Assembly: GCF_000332335.1 (NCBI RefSeq)
Contig: NZ_KB235948.1
Span: 2,804,513-2,848,670, forward strand
Source: Oscillatoria sp. PCC 10802
GTDB lineage: Bacteria > Cyanobacteriota > Cyanobacteriia > Cyanobacteriales > Oscillatoriaceae
Length of the DNA stretch: 44,158 nt
Direction: 5' to 3'
The notes beneath the pieces were generated by a model, which was given only the letters and a program-made list of their open reading frames with translations, was not told where the DNA came from and did no database searches. A program made the position numbers and the translations under genes. Of the stretch, positions 2,347 through 39,821 are shown piece after piece. Positions within the stretch are counted from its first letter, which is position 1, and every line of letters begins with the position of its first letter.

Positions 2347-2383
2347 GCCTCGATCGAATACCCAGTTGGCATAGATATAGCAG

Positions 2384-20613: not shown

Positions 20614-20797
20614 TATAGCAGTATGCACTTAGGTTAGTACATGGGCATCACGCATGCATGGCATCACGCATGCATGGCATCACGCATGCATGGCATCACG
20701 CAAAAGCTGTGAGTCTTTCCCATGCGCATGAGCCCGATGCGCATGAGCCCCATAAGCCATGTCATTAATGTCTTAACCAATATGACTACTGCTATAG
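20614..20797. repeat. MITE with internal 16-bp tandem repeat (catcacgcatgcatgg x3.5)
   Basis: tatagcagtatgcacttaggttagtacatgggcat ... ccatgtcattaatgtcttaaccaatatgactactgctata. Confidence 0.7.
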
Positions 20798-21077: not shown

Positions 21078-22445
21078 TCACTCGTTCATATTCCTGTAAG
21101 TTGCCACTGCTGAAGGAGATATGCGGCTCAGATAGCGGAATATCCAATACTTAAAGATGGTATCCAAAATCACCGGAAAAGTGGCAATAAACAAAAAGTT
21201 AAAGTCCCGACTTTCTGGCAGTCCAAGATGTCTGGATATGCCTTCTAGAATCACTTCCCAGCCATGCGGTGAGTGGAACCCCACGAAAATATCTGTCAGA
21301 AGGATAATAATAAACGCTTTAGCACTGTCGCTGAGGCCGTAAATTATCTCGTCCATAAAAGATTTCAAAATAGCGATTTCTCGCTTACTGGTGAAAACTA
21401 CTGTGGCAAAAACAGCCGCCGATATCAGGTCAGCAAAGACATTTTTTATGGCGCTGTTACCTTCGGCTCTGTACTCTTCAGCAATTTCCTCAGCTTTGTG
21501 TTTGACCCGCTCCTCTAGCTCTTCTGTGGAAAGGTGAGGTGCCGCGCCTATTAAAATTTTAAATTTCAGCTGCTCTTCAAACCGCGCCAAATCTTCAAAA
21601 GCTTCTTTCTCGAAATCTTCGTTTATAAAGATTTCCGCTGAACTTTCTTCTCGGAAGTGGTCTACTACCGGCCCGACGAGGAAATTTTTTGAGAGCTGCT
21701 GCGTCAGGAGGGGAATTAGAACAAGCAAGAGGATAAACCTCAGCGAAATAACAGTCTTATTTTTGGAATTGCGGAAATTTTGAATAACTTCCTCTTCTGC
21801 TTTTGGGTCGAGGTCTTTCTTTAGCTTTTGAACGGTTCTCAAGATTGAGCGCGGTAAAAAGCCAGTTTTATCAGAAATTGATTCAGACATTTTTGCGAAT
21901 TTTTCGGCTGAATAAGGGACTGTACTGTTCTGTGAGAGGTAGCCTGATTGGGAAGGCTGCTCGCTCTGGCTGTAAGCTACCAATAAGGAGGGAGATGAGG
22001 GGGGATAAGTCACTGGCACTGGAGAAGTGTACTTAGCCAACACCCCATCAATAAACGTCAGCTTTTCTAAAGTAATAGAAGCTTTCTCTCTCAGCACGAT
22101 ATTAGTTGAATCCTGAAAGGACTCGGAAGAATCAATAGAAAATTCTTTCGGCTGGCCTAACTTGGTAGTGGTCAGAAGTGAGTGGCTAATCTTGAAAGCG
22201 GACAAGTTGAGTCTAGCAATATTGAGGTACTTGGTTAACTGACCCTCAAAATACTGAATGACACTCTCACTGTAGTGAGCTGTTTCTGCTGAAATCTTTT
22301 GGCCGTTAAAATGCTGATCCTCGATTGATTTGATGGTCAGGGCTGCATTGTAAGCTTCCTCCAGGGCTCTCTCTGGTGTTGCGGAAAACCACTTGCTGGC
22401 ATCGCGGAAGTATCCTTGGATGTTTGTGAACTGGGGTTTTTTCAT
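21078..22445 (-). CDS. pxcA: Proton extrusion protein PxcA/CotA (CemA family)
   Basis: 455 aa; C-terminal CemA domain ...FVGFHSPHGWEVILEGISRHLGLPESRDFNFLFIATFPVILDTIFKYWIFRYLSRISPSAVATYRNMNE. Confidence 0.85.
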   Translation of the reverse strand: MKKPQFTNIQGYFRDASKWFSATPERALEEAYNAALTIKSIEDQHFNGQKISAETAHYSESVIQYFEGQLTKYLNIARLNLSAFKISHSLLTTTKLGQPKEFSIDSSESFQDSTNIVLREKASITLEKLTFIDGVLAKYTSPVPVTYPPSSPSLLVAYSQSEQPSQSGYLSQNSTVPYSAEKFAKMSESISDKTGFLPRSILRTVQKLKKDLDPKAEEEVIQNFRNSKNKTVISLRFILLLVLIPLLTQQLSKNFLVGPVVDHFREESSAEIFINEDFEKEAFEDLARFEEQLKFKILIGAAPHLSTEELEERVKHKAEEIAEEYRAEGNSAIKNVFADLISAAVFATVVFTSKREIAILKSFMDEIIYGLSDSAKAFIIILLTDIFVGFHSPHGWEVILEGISRHLGLPESRDFNFLFIATFPVILDTIFKYWIFRYLSRISPSAVATYRNMNE

Positions 22446-22595
22446 GTCGCGGCTTGTCTTGGGGATATAAGGCGTTGCAAGGGAGCGAAAGGAGCGAAGC
22501 CAGAGGGCGAAGATATAAGAGAAGAAGAGAGAGTGTGAGGGGGAGGTGACAACCTGTTTACCCCTAGGATTTTCCCCTCTCTCTTAAGCGCTATC

Positions 22596-23306
22596 TCAAG
22601 GAACCAGCTCTACTTGGCCGGTGGCCAAGTCGTAGCGAGCGCCAACAATTTTCAGCTGGCCCATTTGAACCAAGTCAGCCAAGATGGGTTGGGAAGATTT
22701 CAATTGCTCAACAACCATTATAATATTCGCTTTGACCGCGTTGTCAAGGGCATCACCGGCTTTGCCTTTTGCCTTGTCTACGGCTGGTTTGATGGCATCG
22801 ACAAAACTGAAAATGTGGCCAGGGACTGGCTTGCCGTCTAGCGCCGCCTTCACCGCACCGCACCGTTCGTGCCCCAGCACCATAATTAAAGGCACACCTA
22901 ATACCGCTGTGGCATATTCGATGCTGCCGAGAATAGCGTCGTCCAGGATATTACCCGCCACCCGAATCACAAACAAGTCCCCCAGTCCTTGGTCGAAGAG
23001 AATTTCCGGCGGAACTCGCGAATCAGCACAGCCGAGCAGGATCGCAAAAGGATGCTGGCCTTTTGCAACCTCTGCGAGACGCATTGGCGTCTGGTCTGGA
23101 TAAGTGCGCTTTTGCTCAACATACCGTTTATTCCCTGCCATCAATTTTTGCAAAGCTTCGTCACCCGTGAGTGGGGCGGCTTCTTGTGGTATTGCTGTTT
23201 CAGGAATAACGATTTCGGCCATCGCTATAGCAACTAAACCACTGGCACCAGTTAGCGCCGGTAAATCGGCTTTATAGTTTACCTTTAACTGCTGTGTATT
23301 TGGCAT
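22596..23306 (-). CDS. Beta-class carbonic anhydrase
   Basis: CADSRVPPE and HERCGAV zinc-ligand motifs; 236 aa. Confidence 0.85.
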   Translation of the reverse strand: MPNTQQLKVNYKADLPALTGASGLVAIAMAEIVIPETAIPQEAAPLTGDEALQKLMAGNKRYVEQKRTYPDQTPMRLAEVAKGQHPFAILLGCADSRVPPEILFDQGLGDLFVIRVAGNILDDAILGSIEYATAVLGVPLIMVLGHERCGAVKAALDGKPVPGHIFSFVDAIKPAVDKAKGKAGDALDNAVKANIIMVVEQLKSSQPILADLVQMGQLKIVGARYDLATGQVELVP

Positions 23307-23525
23307 CGTTTGCTGCGAGTTAAAATTTAGCTGTCCCGGGAGGGATGTAATTTATTCTAGGATTTTTTCAGCTGAATCGAGCGGTATTCCGGGAAGTGGA
23401 GAGAAGGGGGGACGCTTTTACGAACCTGTCAAAACAGCCCCCGGGTTGGGCTGCACAGTGGCAGCCCGAGCGGGAGTTAAGTTGGCGGGATCTCAGCGGA
23501 GGTTCCCCCTAAGCGCGAGAGCCGG

Positions 23526-23822
23526 TTAATGGATGATTGACTGCACGTCAGAAAGCAGGCAAACACCGCCAAACTTCTTGAGTAAAGGTCTGATGATTTC
23601 CACAAATTCAGTGGCTTTTTCTTCCGTGCAAATACTCATCACATAACCATTGCTGAACGCGGCACCCATTTCTAAATCATTGGACACGACCCCTCGCTCG
23701 CCCTTACCTGTCACCTCCCGAATGATGGTATAGCCAGAAACGCCCACCTCTTCTAAGGTTGACAGCACTTTTTCCAATTCCAATGAGGTGATGATGATTT
23801 CTACCTTTTTCATCCGGTTCAC
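23526..23822 (-). CDS. sbtB: SbtB, PII-like regulator of the SbtA bicarbonate transporter
   Basis: 98 aa, MKKVEIIITSLELEKVLSTLEEVGVSGYTIIREVTGKGERG... PII-like fold; 4 bp downstream of sbtA. Confidence 0.8.
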   Translation of the reverse strand: MNRMKKVEIIITSLELEKVLSTLEEVGVSGYTIIREVTGKGERGVVSNDLEMGAAFSNGYVMSICTEEKATEFVEIIRPLLKKFGGVCLLSDVQSIIH

Positions 23823-23826
23823 AGTG

Positions 23827-24801
23827 TCAACCTCCCAGGGTTTTAATCATTTCCAAGTACACAGGAATCCCCACTATGATATTAAAGGGGAACGTGATGG
23901 CTAGAGCCATCGAAACGTAGAGACTTGGATTGGCTTCGGGAACGGTCATCCGCATGGCTGCGGGAACCGCTATGTAAGAGGCGCTTGCCGACAGTACGGC
24001 AAACAGAAGAGAATTCCCCTCGGAAAGCCCCATCAATTTTGCGAGCAGGATGCCGATAAGAGCATTCAATACGGGGATGCAGACAGCAAAGCTAATCAGG
24101 AAAGATCCTGTTTTCTTAAGGTCTCTTATCCTTCGGGCAGCAACCATTCCCATGTCCAGCAAAAAGAACGTCAGGACTCCGTAAAAAATTCCTTGGGTGA
24201 ATGGCTGCATCTTCTCCCAGCCTTTCCCCCCTGTCAGCGCTCCTACTAAAACGCTCCCAATCAAAAGAAAGACCGAGCCATTCAGGAAAGCTTCTTTGAA
24301 AACTTCTGACCAAGAAAATTCGGAATTTTCTTCTGTCTTTTTGCCAAAGATCCTGACCAGGAGAATGCCCACAATGATGGCCGGCGATTCCATGAGGGCG
24401 AGAGCGGCTACCATGTAGCCGTCAAAATGAATGCTGAGTTTGTCCAGGAAAGAACTGGCACTGATAAAGGTGACGGCGCTGATTGACCCATAGGTGGCTG
24501 CAATAGCGGCAGCATTATAAACGTCTAGTTTGATTTTGAGGATAAAAAACGTGTAGAGAGGGACAGCACAAGCCATGATGATGGCTGCTAGGAGAGTGAT
24601 GATAATTTCCAGACTGATTCCACTCTCGTCCAGTTCATAGCCTCCCTTGAACCCTATAGCCAGGAGAAGATACAGAGAGAAGAGTTTGGGCAAAGGCTGA
24701 GGGATTTCCAAGTCAGACTTAAGAAAAATCGCCATCATCCCCAGAAAGAAGAAAAGAACCGGCGGGTTCAGAAGGTTGAACAGAATAAGGCTTGAATCCA
24801 T
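23827..24801 (-). CDS. sbtA: SbtA sodium-dependent bicarbonate transporter (DUF897)
   Basis: MDSSLILFNLLNPPVLFFFLGMMAIFLKSDLEIPQPLPKLFSLYLLLAIGFKGGYEL... polytopic; immediately followed by sbtB. Confidence 0.85.
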   Translation of the reverse strand: MDSSLILFNLLNPPVLFFFLGMMAIFLKSDLEIPQPLPKLFSLYLLLAIGFKGGYELDESGISLEIIITLLAAIIMACAVPLYTFFILKIKLDVYNAAAIAATYGSISAVTFISASSFLDKLSIHFDGYMVAALALMESPAIIVGILLVRIFGKKTEENSEFSWSEVFKEAFLNGSVFLLIGSVLVGALTGGKGWEKMQPFTQGIFYGVLTFFLLDMGMVAARRIRDLKKTGSFLISFAVCIPVLNALIGILLAKLMGLSEGNSLLFAVLSASASYIAVPAAMRMTVPEANPSLYVSMALAITFPFNIIVGIPVYLEMIKTLGG

Positions 24802-25141: not shown

Positions 25142-26127
25142 TTACGAATTGCCGGCTGCCGGTCGAGCCGGTGGGGTGAGGGGGAGGCGAATCGTGGAAG
25201 TGGCCCCCTTGCGAGCACTGCTGCTAGCGGCGATCTTCCCGCCGTGCGCTTCCACAATGGGCTGCGCAATGGCCAGCCCCAAGCCGGTGCCGCTGCCTTT
25301 GCGCGAGCGATCTGCCGTGTAAAACTGCTCAAAAAGGTGGGGGAAATCGGCTTCGCTGATGCCGGCTCCCCAATCTTGGATTTGCACAGCCACAAAGCCA
25401 CCTCCCACACTCCCGGAGACGAAAACCTCAGAATCCGGCGCAGAATATTTAATCGCGTTGTCCAGCACATTCAGGAAAGCTTGCAACAGCCGTTCTGGAT
25501 CGCCCTTGAACTCAACGTCGGGAACGTCCAGCTCGAAGCCAGGACTGGCGGCTCGCATGCGGGACTCCATCGCCAGCACGCAGCGATTGAGCAACTGTTG
25601 CAGGCTGACCGGCTGCTCTTGCAGCGGCAGGACACCGGCTTCCAGCCGCCCCAGTTCCAGCAAGTCCTGAATCAGCCGCGACAGGCGGGCTGTTTCCTCC
25701 AGCGCCGTCTGGATGAAGCGGTTCCGCAGCTCTTGCTCCTCACCGGCACCGCTGGAGAGCGCCTCCAGCGTCACTGACCCGTTTCTCATATAAATAAGCC
25801 AATCCTGTGACACATTCGCCAGGAACGACCGCCGCTAAAGCTCCAGCGCCGCCAGGCGCACCTCACTAGAATGAGACGAGGGGTCAAATCGGCGAAATCA
25901 TCGTTTTGAGGGATATTCAGCTTGTCACCCAAATGACCTGCCTCCAGCCGGATGGCAAAGTTGCGCATCGCCTGGATGGGCGTGGCGATGCGGCGGGAGA
26001 ACCACAGGCTCACGCAGGCGCAGAGCGAGAACGTCACCAGCACCGTTCCCAGCACCGTCCAAATCACGGCTTGAAACTGGCGCTGGAACTGGGCGAGGGC
26101 TGACAGCAGCAGGCGATTTGCTAACAT
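25142..26127 (-). pseudogene. Histidine kinase (TM-HAMP-HisKA-HATPase) disrupted by frameshift(s); H-box position reads Q
   Basis: ORF 25786..26127 gives TM + HAMP-like segment, then loses frame. ORF 25142..25813 (GTG start) gives FLANVSQDWLIY... (SQ where SHELRTPL is expected) plus an intact HATPase_c (NAIKYS, DWGAGI, GTGLGLAIAQ). Confidence 0.6.
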
Positions 26128-28610: not shown

Positions 28611-28752
28611 CATAAAAGTGTGCCGGCTACTGATCCATTTACATGATGACATTTTGAGCCGATAAACGCTGAGTTAACCCAAATTCAGACTTTCTTAACT
28701 GTTTGCCTAATGGGAATTTCAATCCAAAACTCCGCACCCTGTCTGGGATCAG

Positions 28753-29008
28753 ATATAGCAGTAGGCACTTAGGGAAAGGACTTGGGGTTTAACATGATGT
28801 AGGGGCGGGAACACCGACAAAGAGTGCCACACAGGTACAACACCGATAAACCCGCCCCTAACCTCTGATATAGCAGCCGGCAATTGGGCCATAGCGTGTC
28901 CTATGTCCTACCCAATATGACTGCTGCTATACTGCTCTATAGACGTATGTACGGCGTCCGCCGAGCCTGAAGGTTTAATGTCCTAATCTAAGTGGCTAGT
29001 GCTATACT
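28753..29008. repeat. MITE cluster (three nested/adjacent elements)
   Basis: atatagcagtaggcacttagg ... ccaatatgactgctgctata; tatagacgtatgtacggcgtccgccgagcctgaaggtttaatgtcctaatctaagtggctagtgctata. Confidence 0.7.
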
Positions 29009-29217
29009 TTATCTTTTTCTGCTGCAAGATGTTTATAATTTTCTAACAAAGTTGAGCGTGGCGCAGACAAAGGGCAGCCTTTTCTCCCCCGCTGCCGGTG
29101 GCGGAAATCACTGAAGCGCCTGTCATTTAAGTGACAGCCCTACGCCCCAATTGGGAGAGAGAACCTCTCCGACTTCCGCACCCCAGTAACCCAGACCTGT
29201 AGCTGCCCCACAGCCAA

Positions 29218-30579
29218 TTAACTCGCCTTCAGCGCTGCGTGAGCTATCCGCACGATGGGAATCTCAATAACAAACTCTGCCCCCTGTCCGAGTTGCGAGC
29301 AACACTTCAGTTGCCCGCCGTGCTTTTGCACAATAATATCATAGCTGATAGACAGTCCCAAGCCGGTGCCTTCGCCCACCGGCTTAGTAGTGAAGAAGGG
29401 GTCAAATAGCTGTCCCATAACATCAATATCTATCCCGGGCCCATTATCTTTGATACTGATTCTCACCCAATCCCGGTTCAGAACTTGGGTGCGAATGGTA
29501 ATGGTACTGGGGCTGTTTTTAATCTCGTCTGAGGAGCGTGTCTTATCGCGCTCGTTCAGGGCGTCAATTGCATTGCTGAGGAGGTTCATAAAGACCTGAT
29601 TCAAAGAGCCGGCATAGCATTCGACTGCCGGCAAATCCCCGTATTCTTTGACGATTTGAATAGCGGGACTCTCAGGCTTTGCCTTGAGCCGATTGTGCAA
29701 AATCACTAGAGTGCTGTCGATGCCCTCATGAATGCTGACCGGCTTCATTTCAGCTTGGTCAACCCGGGAGAATGTGCGCAACGTCATCACAATCTGGCGG
29801 ATGCGCTCAGCTCCCACTTTCATAGAGCACAGCATTTTGGGGAGATCCTCTCTAAGAAAATCAAGCTCAGTCTCCTCAATTAAAGCTAGGATTTTAGGGT
29901 CAGGATTGACATAGCACTGCTGGTAGAGGTCGATTAAATCCAGGAGAGCCTGAGTGTAGTCCCCAACATAGCTGAGGTTGCCGTAGATGAAGTTGACGGG
30001 GTTGTTAATTTCGTGGGCGACACCGGCAACCAGCTGCCCTAAGCTCGACATTTTCTCGTTCTGAATCAGCTGAGCTTGAGTGCGCTGCAAATCTTGCAAA
30101 ACTCGTTGCAGCTGAATCGCTTTTTCGCGCTCTCGCGCTTCCGATTGCCGCAACTCCTCCTCTTGTTCTTGCCGCAAGCGCAGGTTTTCTTTCAGCTGTC
30201 GCACGCAGTTCAGGGTTTTGCTGATAGTAATTTCTAAATCCTGAAAATCTATGGGCTTGGTGAGAAAGTCAAATGCCCCGCAGTTCATTGCCTTTCTGAT
30301 ATTTGCCATGTCGCTATAGGCGGAAACTACCACTGTTTTAATCAGCGGCGCTATCTCATTCAGTTTAGCCAGCAAAGTCAAACCATCCATAACCGGCATA
30401 TTCAGGTCGGTCAGCACCATGTCGAGGTCGGGGTTATCTCGCACCTTTTCCAGCGCTTCTGCGCCATTGCGGGCAAAAACCAGCTCCAATTCGCCGGTGC
30501 GAATCTTTTTTCTATATTTTTGGCAAATCAGAAGTTCTAAATCCGGCTCGTCATCCACAAAGAGTATTTTAGCTGCCAC
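29218..30579 (-). CDS. Hybrid response regulator / histidine kinase (REC-coiled coil-HisKA-HATPase_c)
   Basis: N-terminal receiver (ILFVDDEPD...[12 protein letters not shown]...KP), H-box [13 protein letters not shown], HATPase KDNGPGID...[14 protein letters not shown]. Confidence 0.85.
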
Positions 30580-30613
30580 AGCACTTATCCTTTTTTGGAT
30601 TTTCTTTAATAAT

Positions 30614-30777
30614 TATAGCAGCAGTCATATGGGTTAAGACAATAGGAGCTTCGGGAGCTCTGGAGCAAGGGAGGCCGGAATGTACCTTCCCTAAATGCCT
30701 ACTGCTATATAGACGTAGGGGGGGCGTCCCGCCCCCCTGAAGGTCTAATGTCCTAATCTAAGTGGCTACTGCTATAT
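30614..30777. repeat. MITE pair inserted between the hybrid kinase and the CheY-like gene
   Basis: tatagcagcagtcatatgggttaag ... tatagacgtagggggggcgtcccgcccccctgaaggtctaatgtcctaatctaagtggctactgctata. Confidence 0.7.
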
Positions 30778-30882
30778 ATCATTTGCTGGCTATTCCAACC
30801 CGTAAAAACGATTCTTTTGGAAAAAGTTTCGCTCAACTGATCGGGACGATCCGGGGGGCAGATAGGTGGGGATTATAGGGGC

Positions 30883-31254
30883 CTAAAACAAGCTGAATAT
30901 TTTTTGTTTCAGTCCCAAAAAGTTAACTGGCTTTGTAATATAGTCATCTGCCCCCAAAGTCATTGCAGTTTTGTAATTTTGAGGGTCTTCGTAAGCGGTA
31001 ATCATAAAGACTTTTAAGCTGGCCAAATCTTTTTTAATGATTCTGAGAAGTTCTAGCCCATTCATTCCCGGCATGTTAATGTCGGAGAGAATCAGCACAG
31101 CGGACGCTTCTCCCCGCTCGTGCAGGTAGTCTAGCGCCGCCTCCGCCGATAAGAAGAAAATAAATTCTATTTGACCGGCTTTGATTTCCTTTCTAAATCT
31201 TTGCTTGAACAGGAGCTGGATATCTTCCTCGTCGTCAACCACTATGACTTTCAT
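30883..31254 (-). CDS. Single-domain response regulator (CheY-like receiver)
   Basis: 123 aa, MKVIVVDDEEDIQ...LILSDINMPGMNGLELL...ITKP. Confidence 0.85.
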   Translation of the reverse strand: MKVIVVDDEEDIQLLFKQRFRKEIKAGQIEFIFFLSAEAALDYLHERGEASAVLILSDINMPGMNGLELLRIIKKDLASLKVFMITAYEDPQNYKTAMTLGADDYITKPVNFLGLKQKIFSLF

Positions 31255-31316
31255 TTATTTTACCATTCCCTTGAACTTGACAGTATTTACCCCGCACAAC
31301 CCATGTTCAGTTTTAA

Positions 31317-31348
31317 AATCCCAAATCCCAAATCCCAAATCCCAAATT
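31317..31348. repeat. STRR heptamer (CCCAAAT)x4
   Basis: aatcccaaatcccaaatcccaaatcccaaat between the sensor kinase stop and the CheY start. Confidence 0.7.
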
Positions 31349-31352
31349 GATA

Positions 31353-34277
31353 TCATTCATGGGCTTGCTTTTTTGGTAAGATGATAATAAACTCTGCATA
31401 GCTGCCTGCTTCCGTTTCCACCTGGAGTTCTCCTCTGTGCTGCTGCACCACAATATCGTGACTGATAGACAGACCCAAACCAGTCCCTTCTCCCGCTGGC
31501 TTTGTAGTAAAAAAGGGGGTGAAAAGTTTATCGCGCACCTCTGGCGTCATACCGGAGCCGTTATCGCGAATGCGGATTTCAACGCGCTCGCCCAGATTTT
31601 TAGTTCGCACGTTCAGGAGCGGAGAAAATTCACTGCCCATTTCTTGTTTCTTTTGATGGGCTGCATAGCAAGCGTTGTTGATAATGTTCAGGAAAACTCG
31701 GCCCATGTCTTGCGGCACGACTTCTACAGAGCCAATAGACTCGTCACAGCCGGTTTCTATGGTAATATTAAAGGAAGCATCCTTGGCCCGCATCCCGTGA
31801 TAGGCGAGATTGACATACTCGGCCAATACACTGTTGATATCCGTCGCCTCCCAGTGACCGCTTTTTCCGCGAGAGTGCAGCAGCATACTGCTAACGATAC
31901 GGTCAGCTCTTTGACCGTGATGGTTGATTTTTTGCAGATTTTGTCTCAGGTCGCTTAACAGGTCGGCAATCGACTCAATGGTTTCGGGATCGAGCCTGCC
32001 GGCTTGATTTTCAATTTCTTCAAATAGCTCTTCCGCCAATTCAGCGGAAAGCTCAGAGAAGTTGTTAACAAAGTTTAAGGGGTTCCTGATTTCGTGGGCG
32101 ATGCCGGCTGTCAAACTTCCCAGAGAAGCAAGCTTTTCTTGCACGACAATTTGTTTTTGCATGGCTCGCAGATTCTCTTCGACCCGCCGGCGCTCGTTTA
32201 TTTCCACCTGCAATTGCTCAACAGTCTGGCTGAGTTCAGAGGTGCGCTCCTCAACTTTTATTTCTAGCTGCTCATTAGCTTTTTGCAGCGCCTCCCGGGC
32301 TCGCACGCGCTCGGTCATGTCGCGCAGAATCACCACATATTCTTGCAGGTCCCGATTGGTTTGCGATGCGTTTTGGGAGAATCGGTCTGAGATGGCAACT
32401 TCCAGGATAAGGGGATTTGGCCCGTGCGGGTTGAGGGTTTGCTCGCACCGGCTCGGCCACTCATCGGGATGATTCCCCAATCCGGGCAGCAGCTGATTGA
32501 GGTGACGTCCGGCCAGCTGGCCGGCGCTCACCCCAAACAGGCGCTCAGCTGCAGGGTTAGCCTGACGAATCATGCCATTTTCATCGAGCACGGCAATCGC
32601 GTCCAGGGCAATGACAAACAGCTGTTCCGCCGCCTCTCGCGCTTCGTCCATCGAGACAACCTGAGGCAAGCTCGTCCAGCAGGCAATCGCCACTCCGACA
32701 AATGCCACACCCTGAATCAGCACCAGCAATAAATTAGAGTTGGCCCTGGGGACGGCATTTAATTTCAGGCCCAAAACCCAGCCGGCGGCAACGGCGCTGC
32801 AGACCAGCAAGATCAGGACTGTCACCTGAAGGGCCACAAAATCTTCTATCGGTTTCTTGGGCCTTTGCCGGTAGCGCTCAATCCACCAGGCGGCGTGAAA
32901 GGGCGCAAATTGAAGGCGGCGCATCGCAGCGTCCACAGCCAAAACAGCGAGGGGAAACAGGAACCCGATGAGAAAGTTGTTCCAGCCCCAAGCACAGCCC
33001 CCAACGAACAGCACAACCACCTCTACCAAAAAGAAGCCCAGCGACGGCCAGGGCCAGCGCACCTCTGGCCTGGCCCGGCCCAGCCACAGTCCCCAATGGA
33101 GGGCCATGAAAGACACCAGCCAGCAAGTATTGGTGATTGCCACGATTTGCGAGACATTTCCCCAAATCAGACAGATGACATTGAGGCACAAGGTAAACAC
33201 CAAGGCCGGTCCGAGTACGCCCCGTCGGGACACAGCGGCGAACACGGATGACAGGTGTCCGTCAAGGCTGAGTTGGTACAAAATGCGGGGGCAATTGGAA
33301 ACTGCGGTGGCGCAACTGAGAAGGAAACTCGCAGAGAGCAGGAATGTGACCATTCCGGAAGCAGACGCCCCCCAGAACGGCTTAGAGGCAGCTAGCAGAT
33401 TTAAGAACGTGTCCTCCCCCAGTCGGGGCTCGGTAGCGAGGCGCATCAGCACCCAGGACCCGCCCAGAAACACCGGCGGCATCAGACAAGCGGCAACCGT
33501 CAGAAAGCGCAGCGTTTCAGCCGGGCGTTTGCTGTCGCCGACAAACGAGGAAGCGGTTTCGCCGGCGTTGGTAACGTAGGTAACAAGGAAAAACCACTTG
33601 GCCCACTCCACAAAGGTGAGGGGCGATGAGCGGCTCGGAAAAAAGCCCGGGCTCGATGGGGAGAAAGCCAGCCAGCCCAGACCTTGCAGGCAAAACAGCA
33701 GCAGCAGTCCGAACGCCGGAATCACGAAACATAAATGCAGGATGCTCAAAGCGCGGGTGCCGCTAAACGCCACAGTAAAGATAACGGCCACAAAGCCGAT
33801 TTTCATCAGGGTATCGGGACAGGCCACACCCAAAGGCTCCAGGTTCCTCTCAATCAGCTTGGTCAGGATGATGGCGGCCACCGGCACATTCGATATCCAG
33901 CTAATGTAATATCCCAGCGCCGCATAGCGGGCAAGCCCTGGATAGCTCTTCAGCAACCGGGCGGCATAGTTGGGCGTTCCACCGGCCATTTCGGGCCATT
34001 GTTCGCCCAAGCGTTTCACTTGCAGGTTTAGCAAGATGCCGGCGATCGCCCCAGGCAACCAGACCAACAGGGCACTGGGCCCAGTAGCGGCGTGGATCGC
34101 TGGAGCGATACTCAGCCATGTGACGTGACCTGTTAGACCAAAGCCCCAGGTTTCCAAGGGTGTCAGGGTTCGCTGCAGGCGCATCCGCGACCTCTCCCTG
34201 AGATTCCCGCCAGGGATTGGTTGAGACGGTTCTGAGTGGGAGCCGGAAGCCTGCTCCTGTTGGGTTTCTAGCACCAT
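31353..34277 (-). CDS. Sensor histidine kinase with large N-terminal polytopic transporter-like (APC/amino-acid-permease-like) domain, PAS, HisKA, HATPase_c
   Basis: 974 aa; ~530 aa of multiple TM segments (GTPNYAARLL...YYISW), PAS (FVIALDAIAVLDENGMIRQANPAAERLFG), H-box GIAHEIRNPLNFV, HATPase DNGSGMTPEV...[14 protein letters not shown]. Confidence 0.8.
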   Translation of the reverse strand: MVLETQQEQASGSHSEPSQPIPGGNLRERSRMRLQRTLTPLETWGFGLTGHVTWLSIAPAIHAATGPSALLVWLPGAIAGILLNLQVKRLGEQWPEMAGGTPNYAARLLKSYPGLARYAALGYYISWISNVPVAAIILTKLIERNLEPLGVACPDTLMKIGFVAVIFTVAFSGTRALSILHLCFVIPAFGLLLLFCLQGLGWLAFSPSSPGFFPSRSSPLTFVEWAKWFFLVTYVTNAGETASSFVGDSKRPAETLRFLTVAACLMPPVFLGGSWVLMRLATEPRLGEDTFLNLLAASKPFWGASASGMVTFLLSASFLLSCATAVSNCPRILYQLSLDGHLSSVFAAVSRRGVLGPALVFTLCLNVICLIWGNVSQIVAITNTCWLVSFMALHWGLWLGRARPEVRWPWPSLGFFLVEVVVLFVGGCAWGWNNFLIGFLFPLAVLAVDAAMRRLQFAPFHAAWWIERYRQRPKKPIEDFVALQVTVLILLVCSAVAAGWVLGLKLNAVPRANSNLLLVLIQGVAFVGVAIACWTSLPQVVSMDEAREAAEQLFVIALDAIAVLDENGMIRQANPAAERLFGVSAGQLAGRHLNQLLPGLGNHPDEWPSRCEQTLNPHGPNPLILEVAISDRFSQNASQTNRDLQEYVVILRDMTERVRAREALQKANEQLEIKVEERTSELSQTVEQLQVEINERRRVEENLRAMQKQIVVQEKLASLGSLTAGIAHEIRNPLNFVNNFSELSAELAEELFEEIENQAGRLDPETIESIADLLSDLRQNLQKINHHGQRADRIVSSMLLHSRGKSGHWEATDINSVLAEYVNLAYHGMRAKDASFNITIETGCDESIGSVEVVPQDMGRVFLNIINNACYAAHQKKQEMGSEFSPLLNVRTKNLGERVEIRIRDNGSGMTPEVRDKLFTPFFTTKPAGEGTGLGLSISHDIVVQQHRGELQVETEAGSYAEFIIILPKKQAHE

Positions 34278-34540
34278 CTATTTAATAGACCGTATTCAGT
34301 GGTTGGCAGCTCGCACCCAAACGGAGAAACACACGGCTTCAACCTCTCAAGGGTTAAGATGCCGGTTGCTGTTCCCCCCTGATCTCTCGCACAGGCGGCA
34401 CGCTTGTGCGGTTCACTGGCAGCGTCAGGATTCATTTTCGAGGTTTAGAATTCCCTCTAGGTGTTTCCTCCGTAACACTTCAATGCCTATTTTGCCTGCC
34501 GGCACAACGTTTTTAACAGAATTAACATTTTTTTTAGAAT

Positions 34541-34778
34541 GTCTTCTTCTCATTTGCGCAACAAACTTAATAATGGGCCGACGCCCAACTACAAACCGAT
34601 CGCCGAGATCTGGCCCTATCCCCGCTCTTTGGATTGCAAAAGGGCCGGCCTGCGGGCTTGTCGTCTTCTCGTTTGAGCAACAAACTTAATAATAGGCCGC
34701 CGCCCAACTACAAACGGCTTGTCGTCTTCTCGTTTGAGCAACAAACTTAATAATGGGCCGCCGCCCAACTACAAACCC
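34541..34778. repeat. Three copies of a ~61-bp repeat (cttgtcgtcttctcgtttgagcaacaaacttaataatgggccgccgcccaactacaaac); the last two are perfectly tandem
   Basis: Copy A 34541-34597 (diverged), B 34657-34717, C 34718-34778. Confidence 0.7.
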
Positions 34779-34884
34779 CACGACAGCACCACCCAGCCGG
34801 TACGAGACGCTCGCCGCTTTTGTGGCCCTTTTCCGCGCTCGCCGGCTGCCGGCGCGCCCCCGAAGCCGTTTAAAATCAATATTT

Positions 34885-35784
34885 ATGGATATTCCCACCC
34901 TACCGTTAGCCTTTCAATTCGCCTCCCCAGGGCCAATCATCTTCCAACTGGGGCCACTGGTCATCCGCTGGTATGGCCTTTTGATTGCCTCAGCGGTGCT
35001 GCTTGGCATCACCCTCTCCCAGTACCTGGCGTCCCGCCGGCACCTGAAGCCAGAACTGCTGGGCGACTTGGCCATCTGGCTCGTCCTGGCGGCTATTCCT
35101 TCCGCCCGAATCTACTATGTCCTGTTTCAGTGGCAAGACTACGCCTCAAATCCAGGCGACATCATTGCCATTTGGAAAGGCGGCATTGCCATTCACGGTG
35201 CCATTCTCGGCGGCACCGCCGCCACCTTAATTTTTTCCCGCCTCCAGAAAATTTCCTTCTGGCAACTCGCAGATTTGGTCGCCCCCTCCCTGATTTTGGG
35301 TCAGGCCATTGGCCGGTGGGGAAATTTCTTCAATTCAGAAGCCTTTGGGGGTCCCACGAATCTGCCGTGGAAACTCTATATCCCCCCCAGCAACCGCCCG
35401 CCGGCGTACATCACTTTCGACTACTTCCACCCCACTTTTCTCTACGAATCCCTGTGGAATTTGATGGTATTTAGCTTATTACTTACCCTATTCTTTCGAG
35501 ATTTAAAGGGGAAGCCCCGCCTGAAAACCGGCACCTTGTTTTTAGTTTACATGGCGGCTTACAGCTCAGGTCGATTTTGGATTGAGGGATTGAGAACCGA
35601 CAGCTTGATGCTGGGGCCGCTGCGCATGGCTCAGATGGTCAGCTTAACCGGCATTGTTTTGGGGCTTGCCGGTTTGGTGTGGCTTTACCTCCTCCACCGG
35701 CCTCTGCCAGATGTTGTCCCCGCCAACCGGCAGCAGCAGGATTATCGCTCTTCCTCTGCCGGTCCGCCCAACAATTCTCCGTAA
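34885..35784 (+). CDS. lgt: Prolipoprotein diacylglyceryl transferase Lgt
   Basis: [13 protein letters not shown] signature, [24 protein letters not shown]; the ORF track starts upstream inside the repeat, but Met at 34885 ([10 protein letters not shown]) matches the family start. Confidence 0.9.
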
Positions 35785-35880: not shown

Positions 35881-36651
35881 CTAGGCTACTTGTGGGCGCA
35901 ACAGCGAAACTAATTGCTCAATCCCCTTTTGAATCCGCCGCGTCACAGTCATCGGGCTGACGCCAATCCTCTCCGCTACTTCCTTGCGGGGGATATCATT
36001 CAAAAACACAAACTCAATCACTTCTCGGGTTTTTTCTTCCAGCTGGCTCAACGCCCCTTGCAGTTGCTGGCGCTCCTCTTCAGCATTTTGCAGCGCTTGG
36101 TAGTGCGCGTCGAGCAGCGTATCTCCCAGCGTCACCGGCATGTCCACTTGCTGGCCAATTGTGGCATCCAGACTCAGGGGGGTAGAATTTTGCGTGGCCA
36201 ACTGGCTTTCCCGCCACTCTTCGAGAGAAACCCCCAGCTTTCTAGCAATTTCAGCCTCGCTAGGAGAGTAACCGAGAGACGCTGTTAATCGCTCGCGAAC
36301 TTTCTGGCCTTCTTTTTGCAGCTCTTGCCAGCGGCGGGGAATTCTCACCGGATTGCCCTTGTCGCGCAAGAAGTGCAGCATCTCGCCGCGAATGTAAGGA
36401 ACGGCAAACGAGCTAAAGGCGCATCCCTGGCTGGGGTCGAAGCGCTCAATGGCCCGAATTAAGCCGAGATAGCCGATTTGTTCCAGGTCTTCGTAGGGTT
36501 CAGCGCACTGGTGGCTGACTCTGTGAGCAATCTTGCGCACCAAGCCTGCATTCAAGCGCACCAGCTGATTGCGAATTTCGACAGAGCGGTTGTGGTGATA
36601 GGAAACCAGCAGCTCCATACCACGGGAGCGGACAGAGGATTGAATTGCCAT
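35881..36651 (-). CDS. RNA polymerase sigma factor, group 3 (SigF/SigB-like)
   Basis: 256 aa; region 2 DLEQIGYLGLIRAIERFDPSQGCAFSSFAVPYIRGEMLHFLRD, region 4 HTH EVAERIGVSPMTVTRRIQKGIEQL. Confidence 0.85.
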   Translation of the reverse strand: MAIQSSVRSRGMELLVSYHHNRSVEIRNQLVRLNAGLVRKIAHRVSHQCAEPYEDLEQIGYLGLIRAIERFDPSQGCAFSSFAVPYIRGEMLHFLRDKGNPVRIPRRWQELQKEGQKVRERLTASLGYSPSEAEIARKLGVSLEEWRESQLATQNSTPLSLDATIGQQVDMPVTLGDTLLDAHYQALQNAEEERQQLQGALSQLEEKTREVIEFVFLNDIPRKEVAERIGVSPMTVTRRIQKGIEQLVSLLRPQVA

Positions 36652-38698: not shown

Positions 38699-39821
38699 AT
38701 GGAAGTCCTAGACATCAAACGCGAAATCGAAACGCTGTCCTACCGCCTGGGGAAAACCCAGGACTATCTTTGACATACCGGCACTGACAGCCCAGATTCA
38801 AGACCTGGAGCAGCTGGCGGCTCAGCCGGCGTTTTGGGACGACCAAGCCGCCGCCCAGCAGACGCTGCAACAACTGGACGGACTGAAATCCCACTTGCAG
38901 CAATACGACCGCTGGCGAACCAGTCTGGAAGACGCTACGGCAGTTTTGGAACTGCTGGAGCTAGAGCCCGATGAGGCGCTGCTGCTGGAGGCGGAAACGA
39001 ATATAACCCAGCTCAACCGCGAACTCGACCAGTGGGAGCTGCAGCAGCTGCTCTCCGGACCCTACGACGAAAAAGGTGCGGTGCTGAGCATAAATGCCGG
39101 TGCCGGCGGCACAGACGCTCAAGACTGGGCCGAGATGCTGGTGCGGATGTACACCCGCTGGGGGGAGCGTCAGGGGTACAAGGTGCACCTGACCGAAATT
39201 TCAGAGGGGGATGAAGCGGGGATTAAGTCCGCCACCCTGGAAATTGCCGGTCGCTATGCCTACGGCTATCTGAAGGCGGAGAAAGGAACGCACCGGCTGG
39301 TGCGGATTTCCCCGTTTAATGCCAACGGCAAGCGGCAAACCAGTTTTGCCGGCGTGGAAGTGATGCCGGCGATCGACACCTCGGTGCAGCTGGAGATTCC
39401 AGAGAAGGATCTAGAAATTACGACCTCCCGCGCCGGCGGTAAGGGCGGGCAGAATGTCAACAAGGTGGAAACCGCTGTGCGGATTGTTCACATCCCCACC
39501 GGCCTTGCGGTGCGCTGCACCGAAGAGCGCAGCCAGCTGCAAAATAAAGAAAAAGCCCTGGCCATCCTGAAAGCGAAGTTGCTGATCGTCGCTGTTGAGC
39601 AGCGGGCCAAGGAAATTGCCCAGATCCGGGGGGATATGGTGGAAGCCGCGTGGGGCAACCAGATCCGCAACTATGTGTTCCATCCTTACCAGTTGGTTAA
39701 GGATCTGCGCACCGGCGTGGAAACCACCGCCATCACCGACGTGATGAACGGCGAGCTCGACCCGTTTATCGAAGCTTATCTGCGCCAGGAAAACCAGATT
39801 GCCGAAAGCCAGCCGGCATAA
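38699..39821 (+). CDS. prfB: Peptide chain release factor 2, with programmed +1 ribosomal frameshift at CTT TGA C (38768-38774)
   Basis: Frame 0: [24 protein letters not shown] then TGA at 38771. The +1 frame continues [24 protein letters not shown]... into the 308-aa ORF with SPF and GGQ motifs ([18 protein letters not shown]). AGGA SD-like element 3 nt upstream of CTT. Confidence 0.9.

What the first reader, a model, noticed from the sequence alone, without database searches (positions are those of the whole stretch)
29218..34277. Three-gene phosphorelay headed by a transporter-fused PAS sensor kinase
A 974-aa kinase has a ~530-aa polytopic N-terminal domain with amino-acid-permease-like features fused to PAS-HisKA-HATPase. 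Downstream on the same strand are a 123-aa CheY-like receiver and a REC-HisKA-HATPase hybrid. The two kinase cores are paralogous (AHEIRNPLNF / [10 protein letters not shown]; [14 protein letters not shown]). The architecture implies substrate or transport-coupled sensing feeding a multistep relay. There is no DNA-binding output in the window, so the output may be another kinase. An STRR and a MITE occupy the two intergenic gaps.
Basis: partly seen in the sequence, partly recalled or inferred. Interest (0 to 1): 0.5.

Follow-up and report, generated by a model that had tools for sequence, protein, structure and literature searches.

The report
APC-transporter-fused sensor kinase cassette
A cyanobacterial sensor kinase uses a complete amino-acid-transporter-type (APC/LeuT-fold) membrane domain as its sensor and sits in a conserved gene cassette with a small receiver protein and a receiver-gated second kinase; this transporter-derived sensor module recurs widely in cyanobacteria but I found no published description of it.

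Summary
Three same-strand ORFs sit at the stated coordinates: HK1 (974 aa), RR (123 aa, REC only) and HK2 (453 aa, REC-HisKA-HATPase). All catalytic motifs are intact.

HK1 residues ~35-455 are a genuine APC-superfamily transporter domain:
- direct phmmer hits to stand-alone APC permeases (E 1e-16);
- hhalign probability 99.95% over 408 columns;
- family-profile hits to LysP and ApcT;
- AF2 model (pLDDT >90) matching y+LAT1, LAT1 and AdiC at TM-score 0.72-0.74.

Two extra TM helices lead into PAS-DHp-CA. The same APC+2TM(+PAS) module is fused elsewhere to GGDEF-EAL, SpoIIE/PP2C, GAF and hybrid kinases, so it is a modular sensor.

The cassette is conserved in nine genomes from at least five Oscillatoriales genera, in unrelated neighbourhoods. 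Two of them lack the small RR. No HPt domain exists.

The best reading is a ligand- or transport-state sensor driving a two-tier kinase cascade: HK1 phosphorylates the REC of an LvrB-like Rec-controlled kinase, and the RR is a side branch. The final output is unlinked.

It parallels CbrA (SLC5-STAC-HK), so I rate it a new variant of a known kind. Ligand and phosphotransfer route are inferred, not shown.

The parts
31353..34277 (-). HK1: 974-aa APC(12TM)+2TM-PAS-DHp-CA sensor histidine kinase ('type-B' core)
   Evidence: ORF; Pfam; AF2 model pLDDT 82; orthologues 55-66% (N-term) and 72-78% (C-term) identical in L076-L083
32913..34175 (-). APC-superfamily transporter-fold domain (residues ~35-455, TM1-TM12). 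Motifs: TM1 ETWGFGLTG 42-50, AGGTPNY 98-104, TM6 AGETASSFVGDSKRP 238-252, CPRILYQLSLDG 329-340
   Evidence: phmmer to stand-alone APC permeases, E 1e-16; hhalign prob 99.95%, E 1e-38, 408 columns; profile vs LysP/ApcT E ~3e-7; Foldseek y+LAT1/LAT1/AdiC TM-score 0.72-0.74; motif positions
32658..32840 (-). Two extra TM helices (TM13 ~480-506, TM14 ~513-540). TM14 continues as one helix into the PAS N-cap. Conserved junction CWTSLPQVV..EAREAAE at 533-551
   Evidence: AF2 DSSP H480-506 and H513-556; invariant or near-invariant W534, T535, P538, A546, R547, E551 across 50 family members with HK outputs
32313..32624 (-). Cytoplasmic PAS domain (residues 552-655)
   Evidence: Pfam PAS_4/PAS/PAS_8/PAS_9, E 1e-6 to 1e-7; no LOV NCRFL motif (read directly from the sequence)
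31368..32210 (-). HK1 DHp (H728 in AHEIRNPLNF) and CA domain (N box 864-872, G1 905-910, F 919-926, G2 929-937)
   Evidence: The core belongs to a very widespread class, 55-67% identical to cores of GAF/HAMP/PAS kinases of many phyla
31316..31347 (.). STRR-like perfect heptamer array (GGGATTT on the coding strand) x4.6 in the 98-bp HK1-RR spacer
   Evidence: TRF score 64, 100% matches
30883..31254 (-). RR: 123-aa single-domain receiver (D8, D9, D58, T86, K108)
   Evidence: Pfam E 3e-22; best solved relatives Spo0F and CheY; 69-75% identical orthologues directly after HK1 in L076-L081, with stop/start overlap in L078 and L080; residues conserved in the alignment
30614..30777 (.). MITE-like dispersed repeat inserted in the RR-HK2 spacer (303 bp here; 35 bp in L076 and 13 bp in L080)
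   Evidence: Modules recur at window 2376-2416, 8947-9106, 13397-13413, 15153-15182, 20768-20796, 28753-29006 and elsewhere; spacer sizes
29218..30579 (-). HK2: 453-aa Rec-controlled histidine kinase. REC 5-117 (D10, D58, S86, K108), charged helical linker ~118-178, DHp (H189) and CA ('type-A' core)
   Evidence: Pfam; best solved relative LvrB 8vc9, E 7e-30; 100% identical to a Kamptonema formosum protein; 60-74% full-length homologues in Oscillatoriales; motifs
28688..28759 (-). C-terminal remnant (…GAEFWIEIPIRQTVKKV*) of a deleted second APC-PAS-kinase gene ('type A'). O. princeps (L001) and L083 still carry that gene between HK2 and rlmN
   Evidence: tblastn 83% over 24 aa with the last 17 identical; the flanks of the gap match L001 on both sides of its 1156-aa paralogue

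Best explanation
HK1 is a transporter-derived ('transceptor-type') sensor kinase.

Architecture: a complete 12-TM APC/LeuT-fold domain acts as a binding and conformational-cycle module for a small extracellular or periplasmic solute. The solute is unknown. The nearest named relatives are TMAO, ethanolamine and basic-amino-acid permeases. Two added TM helices bring the chain back to the cytoplasm. TM14 runs as a continuous helix into a PAS domain and then the DHp/CA kinase.

Proposed signalling (inferred): occupancy or the inward/outward state of the APC domain is passed through TM12-TM14 and the conserved TM14-PAS junction, and sets HK1 autophosphorylation at H728. HK1~P then phosphorylates D58 of the N-terminal receiver of HK2. 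By analogy with LvrB, this drives coiled-coil formation in the linker and releases the CA domain, switching on HK2 (H189). HK2 in turn acts on an unlinked effector. The 123-aa RR belongs to the same receiver subfamily and is translationally coupled to HK1 in relatives. It is a second HK1 substrate that acts as a branch, sink or modulator, not an obligatory relay step.

Shown here: domain identities, fold, intact catalytic residues, cassette conservation, dispensability of the RR.
Inferred: ligand dependence, direction of phosphotransfer, activation logic.
For: APC identity:
- Direct phmmer hits to proteins that score 108-152 bits on PF13520.
- hhalign 99.95%, E 1.2e-38, covering residues 31-446.
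- Family profile hits LysP 9eyd and ApcT 3gi8.
- Homologues 55-60% identical pass the Pfam GA threshold.
- AF2 pLDDT >90 over residues 30-470, and Foldseek TM-score 0.72-0.74 to y+LAT1, LAT1 and AdiC.

Modular sensor: the same module is fused to GGDEF-EAL, which I infer for 49 of 75 species loci from ORF length plus Pfam scans of three representatives. It is also fused to SpoIIE, GAF-GGDEF, PAS/GAF-HK and hybrid HKs.

Cassette: HK1-type gene followed by REC-HK in the window, L001, L002, L076, L077, L078, L080, L081 and L083, in unrelated neighbourhoods.

RR dispensable: in L002 the HK1 stop is followed after 36 bp by the HK2 start, and in L083 the gap is 30 bp.

Shared partner specificity is plausible: the RR and HK2-REC share the RKxI(K/R)xG insert and a similar alpha1 helix, with all catalytic residues conserved. 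A different sensor with a type-B core (STK-AAA-GAF-HK, 59% identical core) is also followed directly by a REC-HK.

HK2 is LvrB-like. The LvrB activation mechanism is taken from PMC13269768.

No HPt domain and no other REC in the window.
Against: - No experiment or computation here shows ligand binding, transport or phosphotransfer.
- This protein alone fails the Pfam AA_permease threshold (16.1 against 24.6 bits).
- Pocket-lining helices (TM1/3/6/8) are not significantly more conserved than scaffold helices (1.47 vs 1.62 bits, p=0.12).
- Among cassette orthologues the APC domain is less conserved (55-66%) than the PAS-kinase half (72-78%).
- In CbrA, the best-studied fused transporter-kinase, L-histidine did not significantly change kinase activity in vitro (PMC7096432). 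So coupling is unproven even in the model case.
- REC-HK homologues also occur away from an intact APC kinase (L082), although L082 keeps an HK1 remnant.
- A 303-bp MITE-bearing spacer separates RR and HK2 in this genome, so co-transcription here is not assured. Promoter and terminator scans were uninformative.
Confidence: 0.55

Rival explanations
1. The APC domain is only a membrane anchor or dimerisation scaffold, or an autonomous transporter with no signalling role. The cytoplasmic PAS domain is the real sensor of HK1, reading a metabolic, redox or other intracellular cue.
For: The PAS-kinase half is more conserved than the APC half among cassette orthologues. The pocket-conservation test was not significant. 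[quoted passage not shown]
Against: The APC+2TM module is kept intact with at least six different output types, including members with no PAS at all (L060, P0181, P0202). A mere anchor would not need a 14-TM domain with conserved TM1/TM6 signature motifs and an invariant TM14 junction.
Confidence: 0.2
2. The three genes are not one pathway. HK1-RR is a self-contained pair whose CheY-like RR acts by protein-protein contact (for example on motility or another enzyme). HK2 is controlled by a different, unlinked kinase and is merely a neighbour.
For: The HK1-RR spacing is the tightest, with stop/start overlap in L078 and L080. REC-HK paralogues are numerous and some are not next to an intact APC kinase. 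Cassettes often carry two REC-HKs.
Against: REC-HK follows the HK1-type gene in all nine cassettes across unrelated neighbourhoods. It persists when the RR is lost (L002, L083). Even the 'orphan' in L082 has an HK1 PAS remnant just upstream.
Confidence: 0.15
3. A canonical His-Asp-His-Asp phosphorelay: HK1 H728 -> RR D58 -> HK2 H189 (the DHp acting like Spo0B/HPt) -> a terminal response regulator.
For: The best solved relative of the RR is Spo0F, the relay intermediate of the sporulation phosphorelay. The gene order is HK-RR-HK.
Against: No HPt domain is present. HK2 has its own intact ATP-binding CA domain and its own receiver. The RR is absent from two intact cassettes. Rec-controlled kinases of this architecture are allosterically activated (PMC13269768).
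Confidence: 0.05
4. The APC domain is a non-transporting receptor, like yeast Ssy1, that binds ligand but has lost translocation. This is a variant of the best explanation, not an opposite of it.
For: The sequence is strongly diverged from functional permeases (23-29% identity; below the Pfam GA for this protein). ApcT's proton-coupling K158 position is occupied by Ala next to an invariant Pro in the family (alignment; the role of K158 is from my own knowledge).
Against: All 12 TMs and the APC signature motifs are retained. CbrA shows that fused transporter domains can still transport (PMC7096432).
Confidence: 0.3

Closest known systems
CbrA / CrbS family (SLC5-STAC-PAS-HK 'transceptors' of Pseudomonas and Vibrio)
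   Same: A complete LeuT-fold secondary-transporter domain with extra TM helices is covalently fused N-terminal to PAS-DHp-CA. CbrA is described as a rare transceptor that transports histidine and signals (PMC13022988, PMC7096432).
   Different: The transporter family here is APC (AA_permease), not SSS/SLC5. There is no STAC domain; TM14 continues directly into PAS. The partner is not an NtrC-type regulator but a CheY-like RR plus a Rec-controlled kinase. The distribution is cyanobacterial. The same sensor is also fused to GGDEF-EAL and PP2C outputs.
LysP-CadC trigger-transporter pair of E. coli, and the yeast APC transceptors Gap1 and Ssy1
   Same: An APC-superfamily permease acts as the sensing element of a signalling pathway. 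LysP is the top solved-structure hit of the family profile (9eyd, E 2.8e-7). [quoted passage not shown]
   Different: In those systems the permease and the signalling protein are separate polypeptides and the output is not a histidine kinase. Here the fusion is covalent. The role of LysP as CadC co-sensor is from my own knowledge and was not tested here.
LvrA/LvrB of Leptospira (Rec-controlled histidine kinase)
   Same: HK2 has the REC-helical linker-DHp-CA architecture. LvrB is its best solved relative (8vc9, E 6.7e-30). In both cases an upstream kinase gene is adjacent. In LvrB, Rec phosphorylation activates the kinase (PMC13269768).
   Different: HK2 is not an orthologue: NF047466 scores 147 bits against a 500-bit cut-off. 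The upstream kinase is an APC-fused sensor rather than a hybrid HK. An extra single-domain RR is present. The downstream target is unknown.
RedCDEF 'four-component' system of Myxococcus xanthus
   Same: It is an operon of two kinase-type proteins and receiver-only proteins with no DNA-binding output, working as one circuit (PMC2755868).
   Different: The domain arrangements differ (a dual-receiver RedD and a kinase-like RedE). There is no transporter-type sensor and no sequence relationship was tested.
Stand-alone APC permeases nearest NF053774 (TMAO permease TmoP)
   Same: These are the closest non-fused relatives (phmmer E 1e-13 to 1e-16). They share the motifs AGGT(P/A)xY, (C/A)E(T/M)AS…(D/E)xRxP and (P/S)R(I/T)LYQ(L/M)xxDG.
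   Different: They have 12 TM helices only and no signalling domains. Identity is 23-29%. All scores are far below the 690-bit equivalog cut-off, so substrate cannot be transferred.

Membership tests
APC superfamily (Pfam AA_permease PF00324 / AA_permease_2 PF13520) | This protein scores above the Pfam gathering threshold | tested here: not met
   PF00324 16.1 bits against GA 24.6, partial match at residues 312-382. Homologues 55-60% identical do pass: L013 44 bits, L044 53.8 bits on PF13520, P0111 46 bits.
APC superfamily (Pfam AA_permease PF00324 / AA_permease_2 PF13520) | Statistically significant full-length homology to bona fide APC permeases | tested here: met
   phmmer E 1.1e-16 to P0246 over residues 38-447; those hits score 108-152 bits on PF13520. 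hhalign prob 99.95%, E 1.2e-38, 408 columns. Family profile vs LysP and ApcT, E ~3e-7.
APC superfamily (Pfam AA_permease PF00324 / AA_permease_2 PF13520) | 12-TM LeuT-type fold | tested here: met
   AF2 pLDDT >90 over residues 30-470. Foldseek: y+LAT1 8xxi TM-score 0.74 (441 columns, rmsd 4.4), LAT1 8kdg 0.74, AdiC 5j4n 0.73.
APC superfamily (Pfam AA_permease PF00324 / AA_permease_2 PF13520) | Signature motifs in the unwound TM1 (GxG) and TM6 ((G/C)-E…P), and the post-TM8 R-x-L-Y motif | tested here: met
   G45-F46-G47, E240 and R331-I-L-Y are aligned to the corresponding motifs of stand-alone permeases and LysP. E42, G99, G100 and R331 are invariant in 30 diverse members.
APC superfamily (Pfam AA_permease PF00324 / AA_permease_2 PF13520) | Solute transport activity | not testable with these tools
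   Needs uptake assays.
HisKA-type sensor histidine kinase (HK1 and HK2) | H box His, N, G1, F and G2 boxes | tested here: met
   HK1: H728, 864-872, 905-910, 919-926, 929-937. HK2: H189, 332-340, 378-383, 392-399, 402-410.
SLC5/STAC histidine kinases (CbrA, CrbS) | SLC5 (SSS) transporter domain | tested here: not met
   No SSF hit. The domain is APC by sequence and by best fold matches.
SLC5/STAC histidine kinases (CbrA, CrbS) | STAC four-helix domain between transporter and PAS | tested here: not met
   In the model, TM14 (513-540) continues as one helix into PAS. Only a 10-residue amphipathic helix (462-471) lies between TM12 and TM13. No such Pfam hit.
Rec-controlled histidine kinase (LvrB type) - HK2 | N-terminal receiver with D-D-D-(S/T)-K, helical linker, DHp, CA | tested here: met
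   Best solved relative is LvrB, E 6.7e-30.
Rec-controlled histidine kinase (LvrB type) - HK2 | Orthology to LvrB (NF047466 cut-off) | tested here: not met
   147 bits against a 500-bit cut-off.
Canonical multistep phosphorelay (His-Asp-His-Asp) | HPt domain or Spo0B-like phosphotransferase between two receivers | tested here: not met
   No Hpt hit in any of the three proteins. The RR is absent in L002 and L083.
CheY-like single-domain response regulator - RR | Receiver fold only, with D8/D9, D58, T86, K108 | tested here: met
   Pfam 3-119 of 123 aa; residues; nearest solved relatives Spo0F and CheY.
Conserved operon-like cassette | Same order and strand in several genera, in different neighbourhoods | tested here: met
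   Nine genomes. Flanking genes differ: ThrRS/GHMP kinase in L076, aminotransferase/PmbA in L077 and L081, GAF-PAS protein/MFP in L078, lgt/rlmN in the window.
STRR (cyanobacterial short tandemly repeated repetitive sequence) | Tandem heptamer array in an intergenic region | tested here: met
   7-bp unit x4.6, 100% matches. Identity with a named STRR class was not tested.
MITE | Short non-coding element with terminal inverted repeats, multiple dispersed copies and a target-site duplication | tested here: inconclusive
   Dispersed copies of the terminal modules, in inverted arrangement, are present. Full-length copies and a target-site duplication were not established.

The most novel reading that the evidence does not exclude
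The APC(12TM)+2TM(+PAS) module is an unnamed, mainly cyanobacterial family of bacterial APC 'transceptor' sensors. It has at least 224 clusters at 50% identity and rare members in Actinomycetota and Oligoflexus. It couples the alternating-access cycle of an amino-acid/organocation-type transporter to histidine-kinase, c-di-GMP and PP2C outputs.

In Oscillatoriales, one branch has swapped the directly fused 'type-A' kinase core for a 'type-B' core. That core relays to the same type-A core through a receiver (HK2). This inserts a regulatable phosphorylation step between sensor and kinase, with the small RR as a tunable sink.
Probability: 0.3. Interest if true: 0.7.

Novelty: new variant of a known kind. 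Interest (0 to 1): 0.55.

Why it matters
Covalent transporter-kinase fusions are considered rare, and mechanistic work rests almost entirely on CbrA (SLC5).

A second, independent LeuT-fold lineage (APC) fused to kinases, and also to GGDEF-EAL and PP2C outputs, would give a natural comparative system. It bears on how the rocking-bundle cycle of a transporter is read out by cytoplasmic signalling domains. Here the link is a single continuous TM14-PAS helix with no STAC adaptor.

It would also point to an unexplored nutrient or solute input into c-di-GMP and two-component signalling in filamentous cyanobacteria.

The conserved 'type-B sensor kinase -> Rec-controlled type-A kinase' pairing offers a tractable cyanobacterial example of the LvrB-type kinase cascade.

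The practical consequence is annotation. These proteins are currently labelled 'ATP-binding protein', 'PAS domain S-box protein' or 'amino acid permease'.

Tried and rejected
1. **Direct Pfam and PDB sequence searches with the N-terminal domain alone.** These gave only a sub-threshold AA_permease hit and a chance COX7a match. The question was resolved only with the exhaustive phmmer search, profiles and fold comparison.

2. **Recent-split hypothesis.** The idea was that HK2 arose when a foreign [core-RR-REC] cassette was inserted into an ancestral APC-PAS-kinase. It came from HK2's core being 54-74% identical to cores fused directly to APC sensors, against 31-37% for HK1's own core. I rejected it as a recent event. 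Full-length REC-HK homologues (60-74%) are widespread in Oscillatoriales. The same type-B-kinase -> REC-HK pairing exists behind a different sensor. NJ trees of cores and of APC domains are star-like and carry no support values, so only 'same core subfamily' can be said.

3. **First co-occurrence test by pattern-based locus scan.** It suggested the trio was confined to Oscillatoria. This was an artefact of the 8-mer seeding. Context look-ups through HK2 homologues overturned it.

4. **Pocket-versus-scaffold conservation.** Not significant.

5. **Promoter and terminator scan.** Counts were at shuffle expectation.

6. **Rfam scan of the leader and spacers.** No hits, so no riboswitch clue to the ligand.

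7. **Substrate inference from NCBIfam.** The best family is the TMAO permease, but all scores are far below its cut-off. I keep it as a lead only.

8. **Literature searches for an existing description of APC-kinase or APC-GGDEF fusions.** None found in the library. This is absence within that library, not proof of absence.

Full report
**Source and observation.** The window comes from *Kamptonema formosum* or a near-identical strain. HK2 is 100% identical over 453 aa to a protein of that species. The nearest loci are Oscillatoria MAGs at 88-90% identity. Pfam gives the following:
- HK1: PAS 552-655, HisKA 719-762, HATPase_c 855-970.
- RR: a receiver and nothing else.
- HK2: receiver 5-117, HisKA, HATPase_c.

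All phospho-acceptor and ATP-binding motifs are intact. In HK1 these are H728 and the N, G1, F and G2 boxes. In the RR they are D8, D9, D58, T86 and K108. In HK2 they are D10, D58, S86, K108 and H189 plus the N-G2 boxes. The two kinase cores are 34% identical (E 7e-44).

The intergenic claims also hold. A perfect GGGATTT x4.6 array lies at 31316-31347. A ~164-bp element with inverted modules lies at 30614-30777, and its parts recur at ten or more other places in the window.

**The N-terminal domain is an APC transporter domain.** Taken alone, the domain only grazes Pfam AA_permease (16.1 bits against a threshold of 24.6). It finds nothing in the PDB by phmmer. Four independent tests settle the question.
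1. An exhaustive phmmer search of 1.84 billion representatives returns only 224 proteins. Beyond the fused relatives, these are 437-489-aa stand-alone proteins (E 1e-13 to 1e-16 over residues ~38-456). Those proteins score 108-152 bits on AA_permease_2 and are named APC family permeases.
2. A 30-sequence profile of the fused family aligns to six such permeases with hhalign probability 99.95%, E 1.2e-38. The alignment has 408 columns from residue 31 to 446, which covers TM1-TM12. Shared motifs are AGGTPNY/AGGTATY, CETASSFVADSRxP/AEMASTVVAExRDP, PRILYQLALDG/SRTLYQMSxDG and GGxAWGW/GGxLWG.
3. The same profile hits the solved APC transporters LysP (9eyd, E 2.8e-7) and ApcT (3gi8, E 3.1e-7).
4. An AlphaFold2 model built on 50 homologues has pLDDT above 90 across residues ~30-470. 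Foldseek matches that part to y+LAT1 (8xxi, TM-score 0.74, 441 columns), LAT1 (8kdg, 0.74) and AdiC (5j4n, 0.73). The C-terminal half matches PAS/LOV-kinases, ZraS and LvrB.

Close homologues (55-60% identical) pass the Pfam thresholds.

The model has 14 TM helices. These are the 12 of the APC core, then a short amphipathic helix (462-471), then TM13 (480-506) and TM14 (513-540). TM14 continues without a break into the PAS N-cap (H513-556). With the usual N-in topology of APC proteins (established knowledge), the two extra helices place the PAS-kinase in the cytoplasm. The junction CWTSLPQVV..EAREAAE (533-551) is among the most conserved stretches in the family.

**A modular sensor family.** The module is not specific to this kinase.
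- The word-indexed search finds it fused to PAS-HK, SpoIIE/PP2C and GGDEF.
- Of 75 species-level genomic loci, 49 encode a ~1127-aa protein. Three sampled representatives of these are APC-PAS-GGDEF-EAL.
- Others are APC-PAS-HK, APC-PAS-HK-REC, or APC-HK without PAS.
- More distant members add PAS/GAF arrays, double receivers, GAF-GGDEF and PAS-less GGDEF-EAL.

Members are overwhelmingly cyanobacterial. Rare ones occur in an Actinomycetota MAG and in *Oligoflexus*.

The nearest named transporter family is the TMAO permease NF053774. This holds for the stand-alone cousins (152-226 bits) and for the window's domain (33 bits, E 2.4e-8). All are far below the 690-bit cut-off, so this is only a hint that the ligand may be a small amine or organocation rather than an alpha-amino acid.

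Conservation is not significantly concentrated on the pocket helices TM1/3/6/8 (p = 0.12). I could not map it in three dimensions because model coordinates are not exposed.

**Is the three-gene unit real?** The first test misled. Among the 75 loci found by peptide seeding, only L001 had the trio and L002 had HK1+HK2 without the RR. In all non-Oscillatoria APC kinases the core is 54-66% identical to HK2's core but only 31-37% to HK1's own. This defines two kinds of APC kinase. 'Type A' has the [15 protein letters not shown]-type core and stands alone. 'Type B' is HK1-like.

Looking up the genomic context of HK2 homologues changed the picture. The order type-B APC-PAS-HK -> 122/123-aa RR -> one or two REC-HKs occurs in these loci:
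- *Microcoleus* FACHB-68 (L076).
- *Microcoleus* A003_D6 (L077).
- *M. vaginatus* (L081).
- *Aerosakkonema funiforme* (L078, where the first REC-HK is truncated).
- *Argonema galeatum* (L080).

All of these have different flanking genes. tblastn identities to the window proteins are 55-65% for the APC domain, 74-78% for PAS+core, 69-75% for the RR and 70-74% for HK2. In L078 and L080 the RR start overlaps the HK1 stop.

A further genome (L083) has type-B HK, then REC-HK after a 30-bp gap with no RR, then a type-A APC kinase, then rlmN. In L002 the HK1 stop and HK2 start are 36 bp apart with no RR.

So the cassette is conserved in nine genomes, and HK1+HK2 is its invariant core.

In L084/85 a REC-HK homologue directly follows a 1799-aa STK-AAA-GAF-kinase whose core is 59% identical to HK1's. 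The pairing 'type-B core kinase -> REC-gated type-A core kinase' is therefore more general than the APC sensor. HK1's core itself belongs to a very large class found behind many sensors in many phyla.

**Mechanism.** No HPt domain exists in the three proteins. HK2 carries its own complete ATP-binding domain, and its best solved relative is LvrB (E 6.7e-30). LvrB is the prototype Rec-controlled kinase. [quoted passage not shown] HK2 has a comparable ~60-residue charged helical linker.

The RR and HK2's receiver are 36.5% identical. They share an RKxI(K/R)xG insert and a similar alpha1 helix, and keep all catalytic residues in every cassette. Alpha1 is the main kinase-docking surface according to established work on two-component specificity.

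I therefore propose the following. HK1 phosphorylates HK2's receiver, which is the conserved link, and also the small RR, which is a dispensable branch, sink or modulator. HK2 then acts on an unlinked target. The window contains no other receiver. The upstream step is inferred by analogy with CbrA: solute occupancy or the transport state of the APC domain is transmitted through TM12-TM14 and the conserved junction to PAS and the DHp. That coupling has not been demonstrated biochemically even for CbrA (PMC7096432, PMC13022988).

**Local history.** In distant cyanobacteria the slot between lgt and rlmN holds a single type-A APC kinase (L061, L072). *Scytonema* has three in tandem next to lgt (L059). 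*O. princeps* and L083 have the cassette followed by a type-A gene. In the window that type-A gene has been deleted.
- The two ends of the 565-bp HK2-rlmN gap match L001 on either side of its 1156-aa paralogue.
- Positions 28688-28759 still encode its last residues (…GAEFWIEIPIRQTVKKV*).
- The junction is filled with the same MITE-like modules.

NJ trees of cores and of APC domains are poorly resolved. I do not claim how type B arose.

**Comparison and novelty.**
- The closest functional analogue is the SLC5-STAC-PAS-HK family (CbrA, CrbS). This system fails both defining features of that family, since it has an APC domain instead of SLC5 and no STAC.
- The closest APC analogues are non-fused: LysP-CadC, and the yeast proteins Gap1 and Ssy1.
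- HK2 works like LvrB but is not its orthologue.
- RedCDEF (PMC2755868) is a precedent for multi-kinase, multi-receiver operons without a DNA-binding output.

Ten full-text searches found no description of APC-kinase or APC-GGDEF fusions. Database names for these proteins are generic.

I rate this a new variant of a known kind, with interest 0.55. The architecture and conservation are solid and give a second LeuT-fold lineage for studying transceptor signalling. The concept has precedent, and ligand, transport and phosphotransfer all remain untested.

Noticed in passing
window 28653-29217 (remnant at 28688-28759, - strand): The HK2-rlmN gap is the scar of a ~3.4-kb deletion. The deletion removed a second, type-A APC-PAS-kinase gene that is still present in O. 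princeps (L001 13152-16622) and in L083. The last 17 codons and the stop survive, and the junction is filled with MITE-like repeat modules.
   Followed up: yes
window 2376-2416, 8947-9106, 13397-13413, 14966-14985, 15153-15182, 20614-20633, 20768-20796, 28753-28776, 28915-28931, 28966-29006, 30614-30777: A family of short dispersed repeat modules (17-42 nt, 88-100% identical), often in inverted pairs, is scattered through intergenic regions. It behaves like a small MITE or dispersed palindromic repeat family.
   Followed up: partly
window 34655-34776: A 61-bp unit is tandemly duplicated (2.0 copies, 98% match, TRF score 237), with a further diverged copy at 34540-34596. It overlaps the 5' end of the lgt ORF (34753..35784). 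The same repeats are present in L001.
   Followed up: no
window 25142-26127 (- strand): Two overlapping ORFs in different frames together look like one disrupted TM-HAMP-like histidine kinase. ORF 25786..26127 has a TM segment plus a HAMP-like stretch. ORF 25142..25813 has only the C-terminal part of HisKA (profile positions 23-66) plus HATPase_c. This is either a frameshifted pseudogene or a sequencing error. The region is unusually G+C-rich (61.7%).
   Followed up: partly
window 21078-24801 (- strand): A cluster of inorganic-carbon-related genes: CemA/PxcA-family protein (21078..22445), beta-carbonic anhydrase (22596..23306) and an SbtA-type Na+/bicarbonate transporter family protein (23827..24801). 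It lies in a lower-G+C stretch (43-50%).
   Followed up: no
window 38768-38774 and ORF 38895..39821 (+): The RF2 (prfB) ORF starts at PCRF profile position 39. A CTTTGAC motif lies ~120 nt upstream. This fits the well-known programmed +1 frameshift of prfB.
   Followed up: partly
L082 7596-7922 and 8001-9323: In Oscillatoriales USR001 the REC-HK looks like an orphan, but a 109-aa stretch 67% identical to HK1's PAS region lies directly upstream. This looks like a decayed cassette.
   Followed up: partly
L084/L085 2545-7944 and 8001-9425: A 1799-aa Ser/Thr-kinase-AAA-GAF-histidine kinase, whose core is 59% identical to HK1's, is followed 57 bp later by a REC-HK 61% identical to HK2. It is the same two-tier kinase pairing behind a different sensor.
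   Followed up: partly
L059 4158-12752: Scytonema sp. NUACC26 carries three tandem type-A APC-PAS-kinase genes next to lgt (54-55% identical to HK1's APC domain). This points to repeated local duplication of this sensor.
   Followed up: no
L078 7210-7869; L003 1446-2702: In Aerosakkonema the first of the two REC-HK genes is reduced to a 219-aa HATPase fragment. In the Oscillatoria MAG L003 the HK1 orthologue is interrupted after 418 aa (protein P0001). That could be a real pseudogene or an assembly error.
   Followed up: no
window 35881-36651 (- strand): A sigma-70-family factor gene (regions 2, 3, 4) lies two genes upstream of the cassette and is syntenic in L001 and L002 only. LvrB's target is an anti-sigma factor, so this is a speculative place to look for the output. 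It is not conserved with the cassette elsewhere.
   Followed up: no
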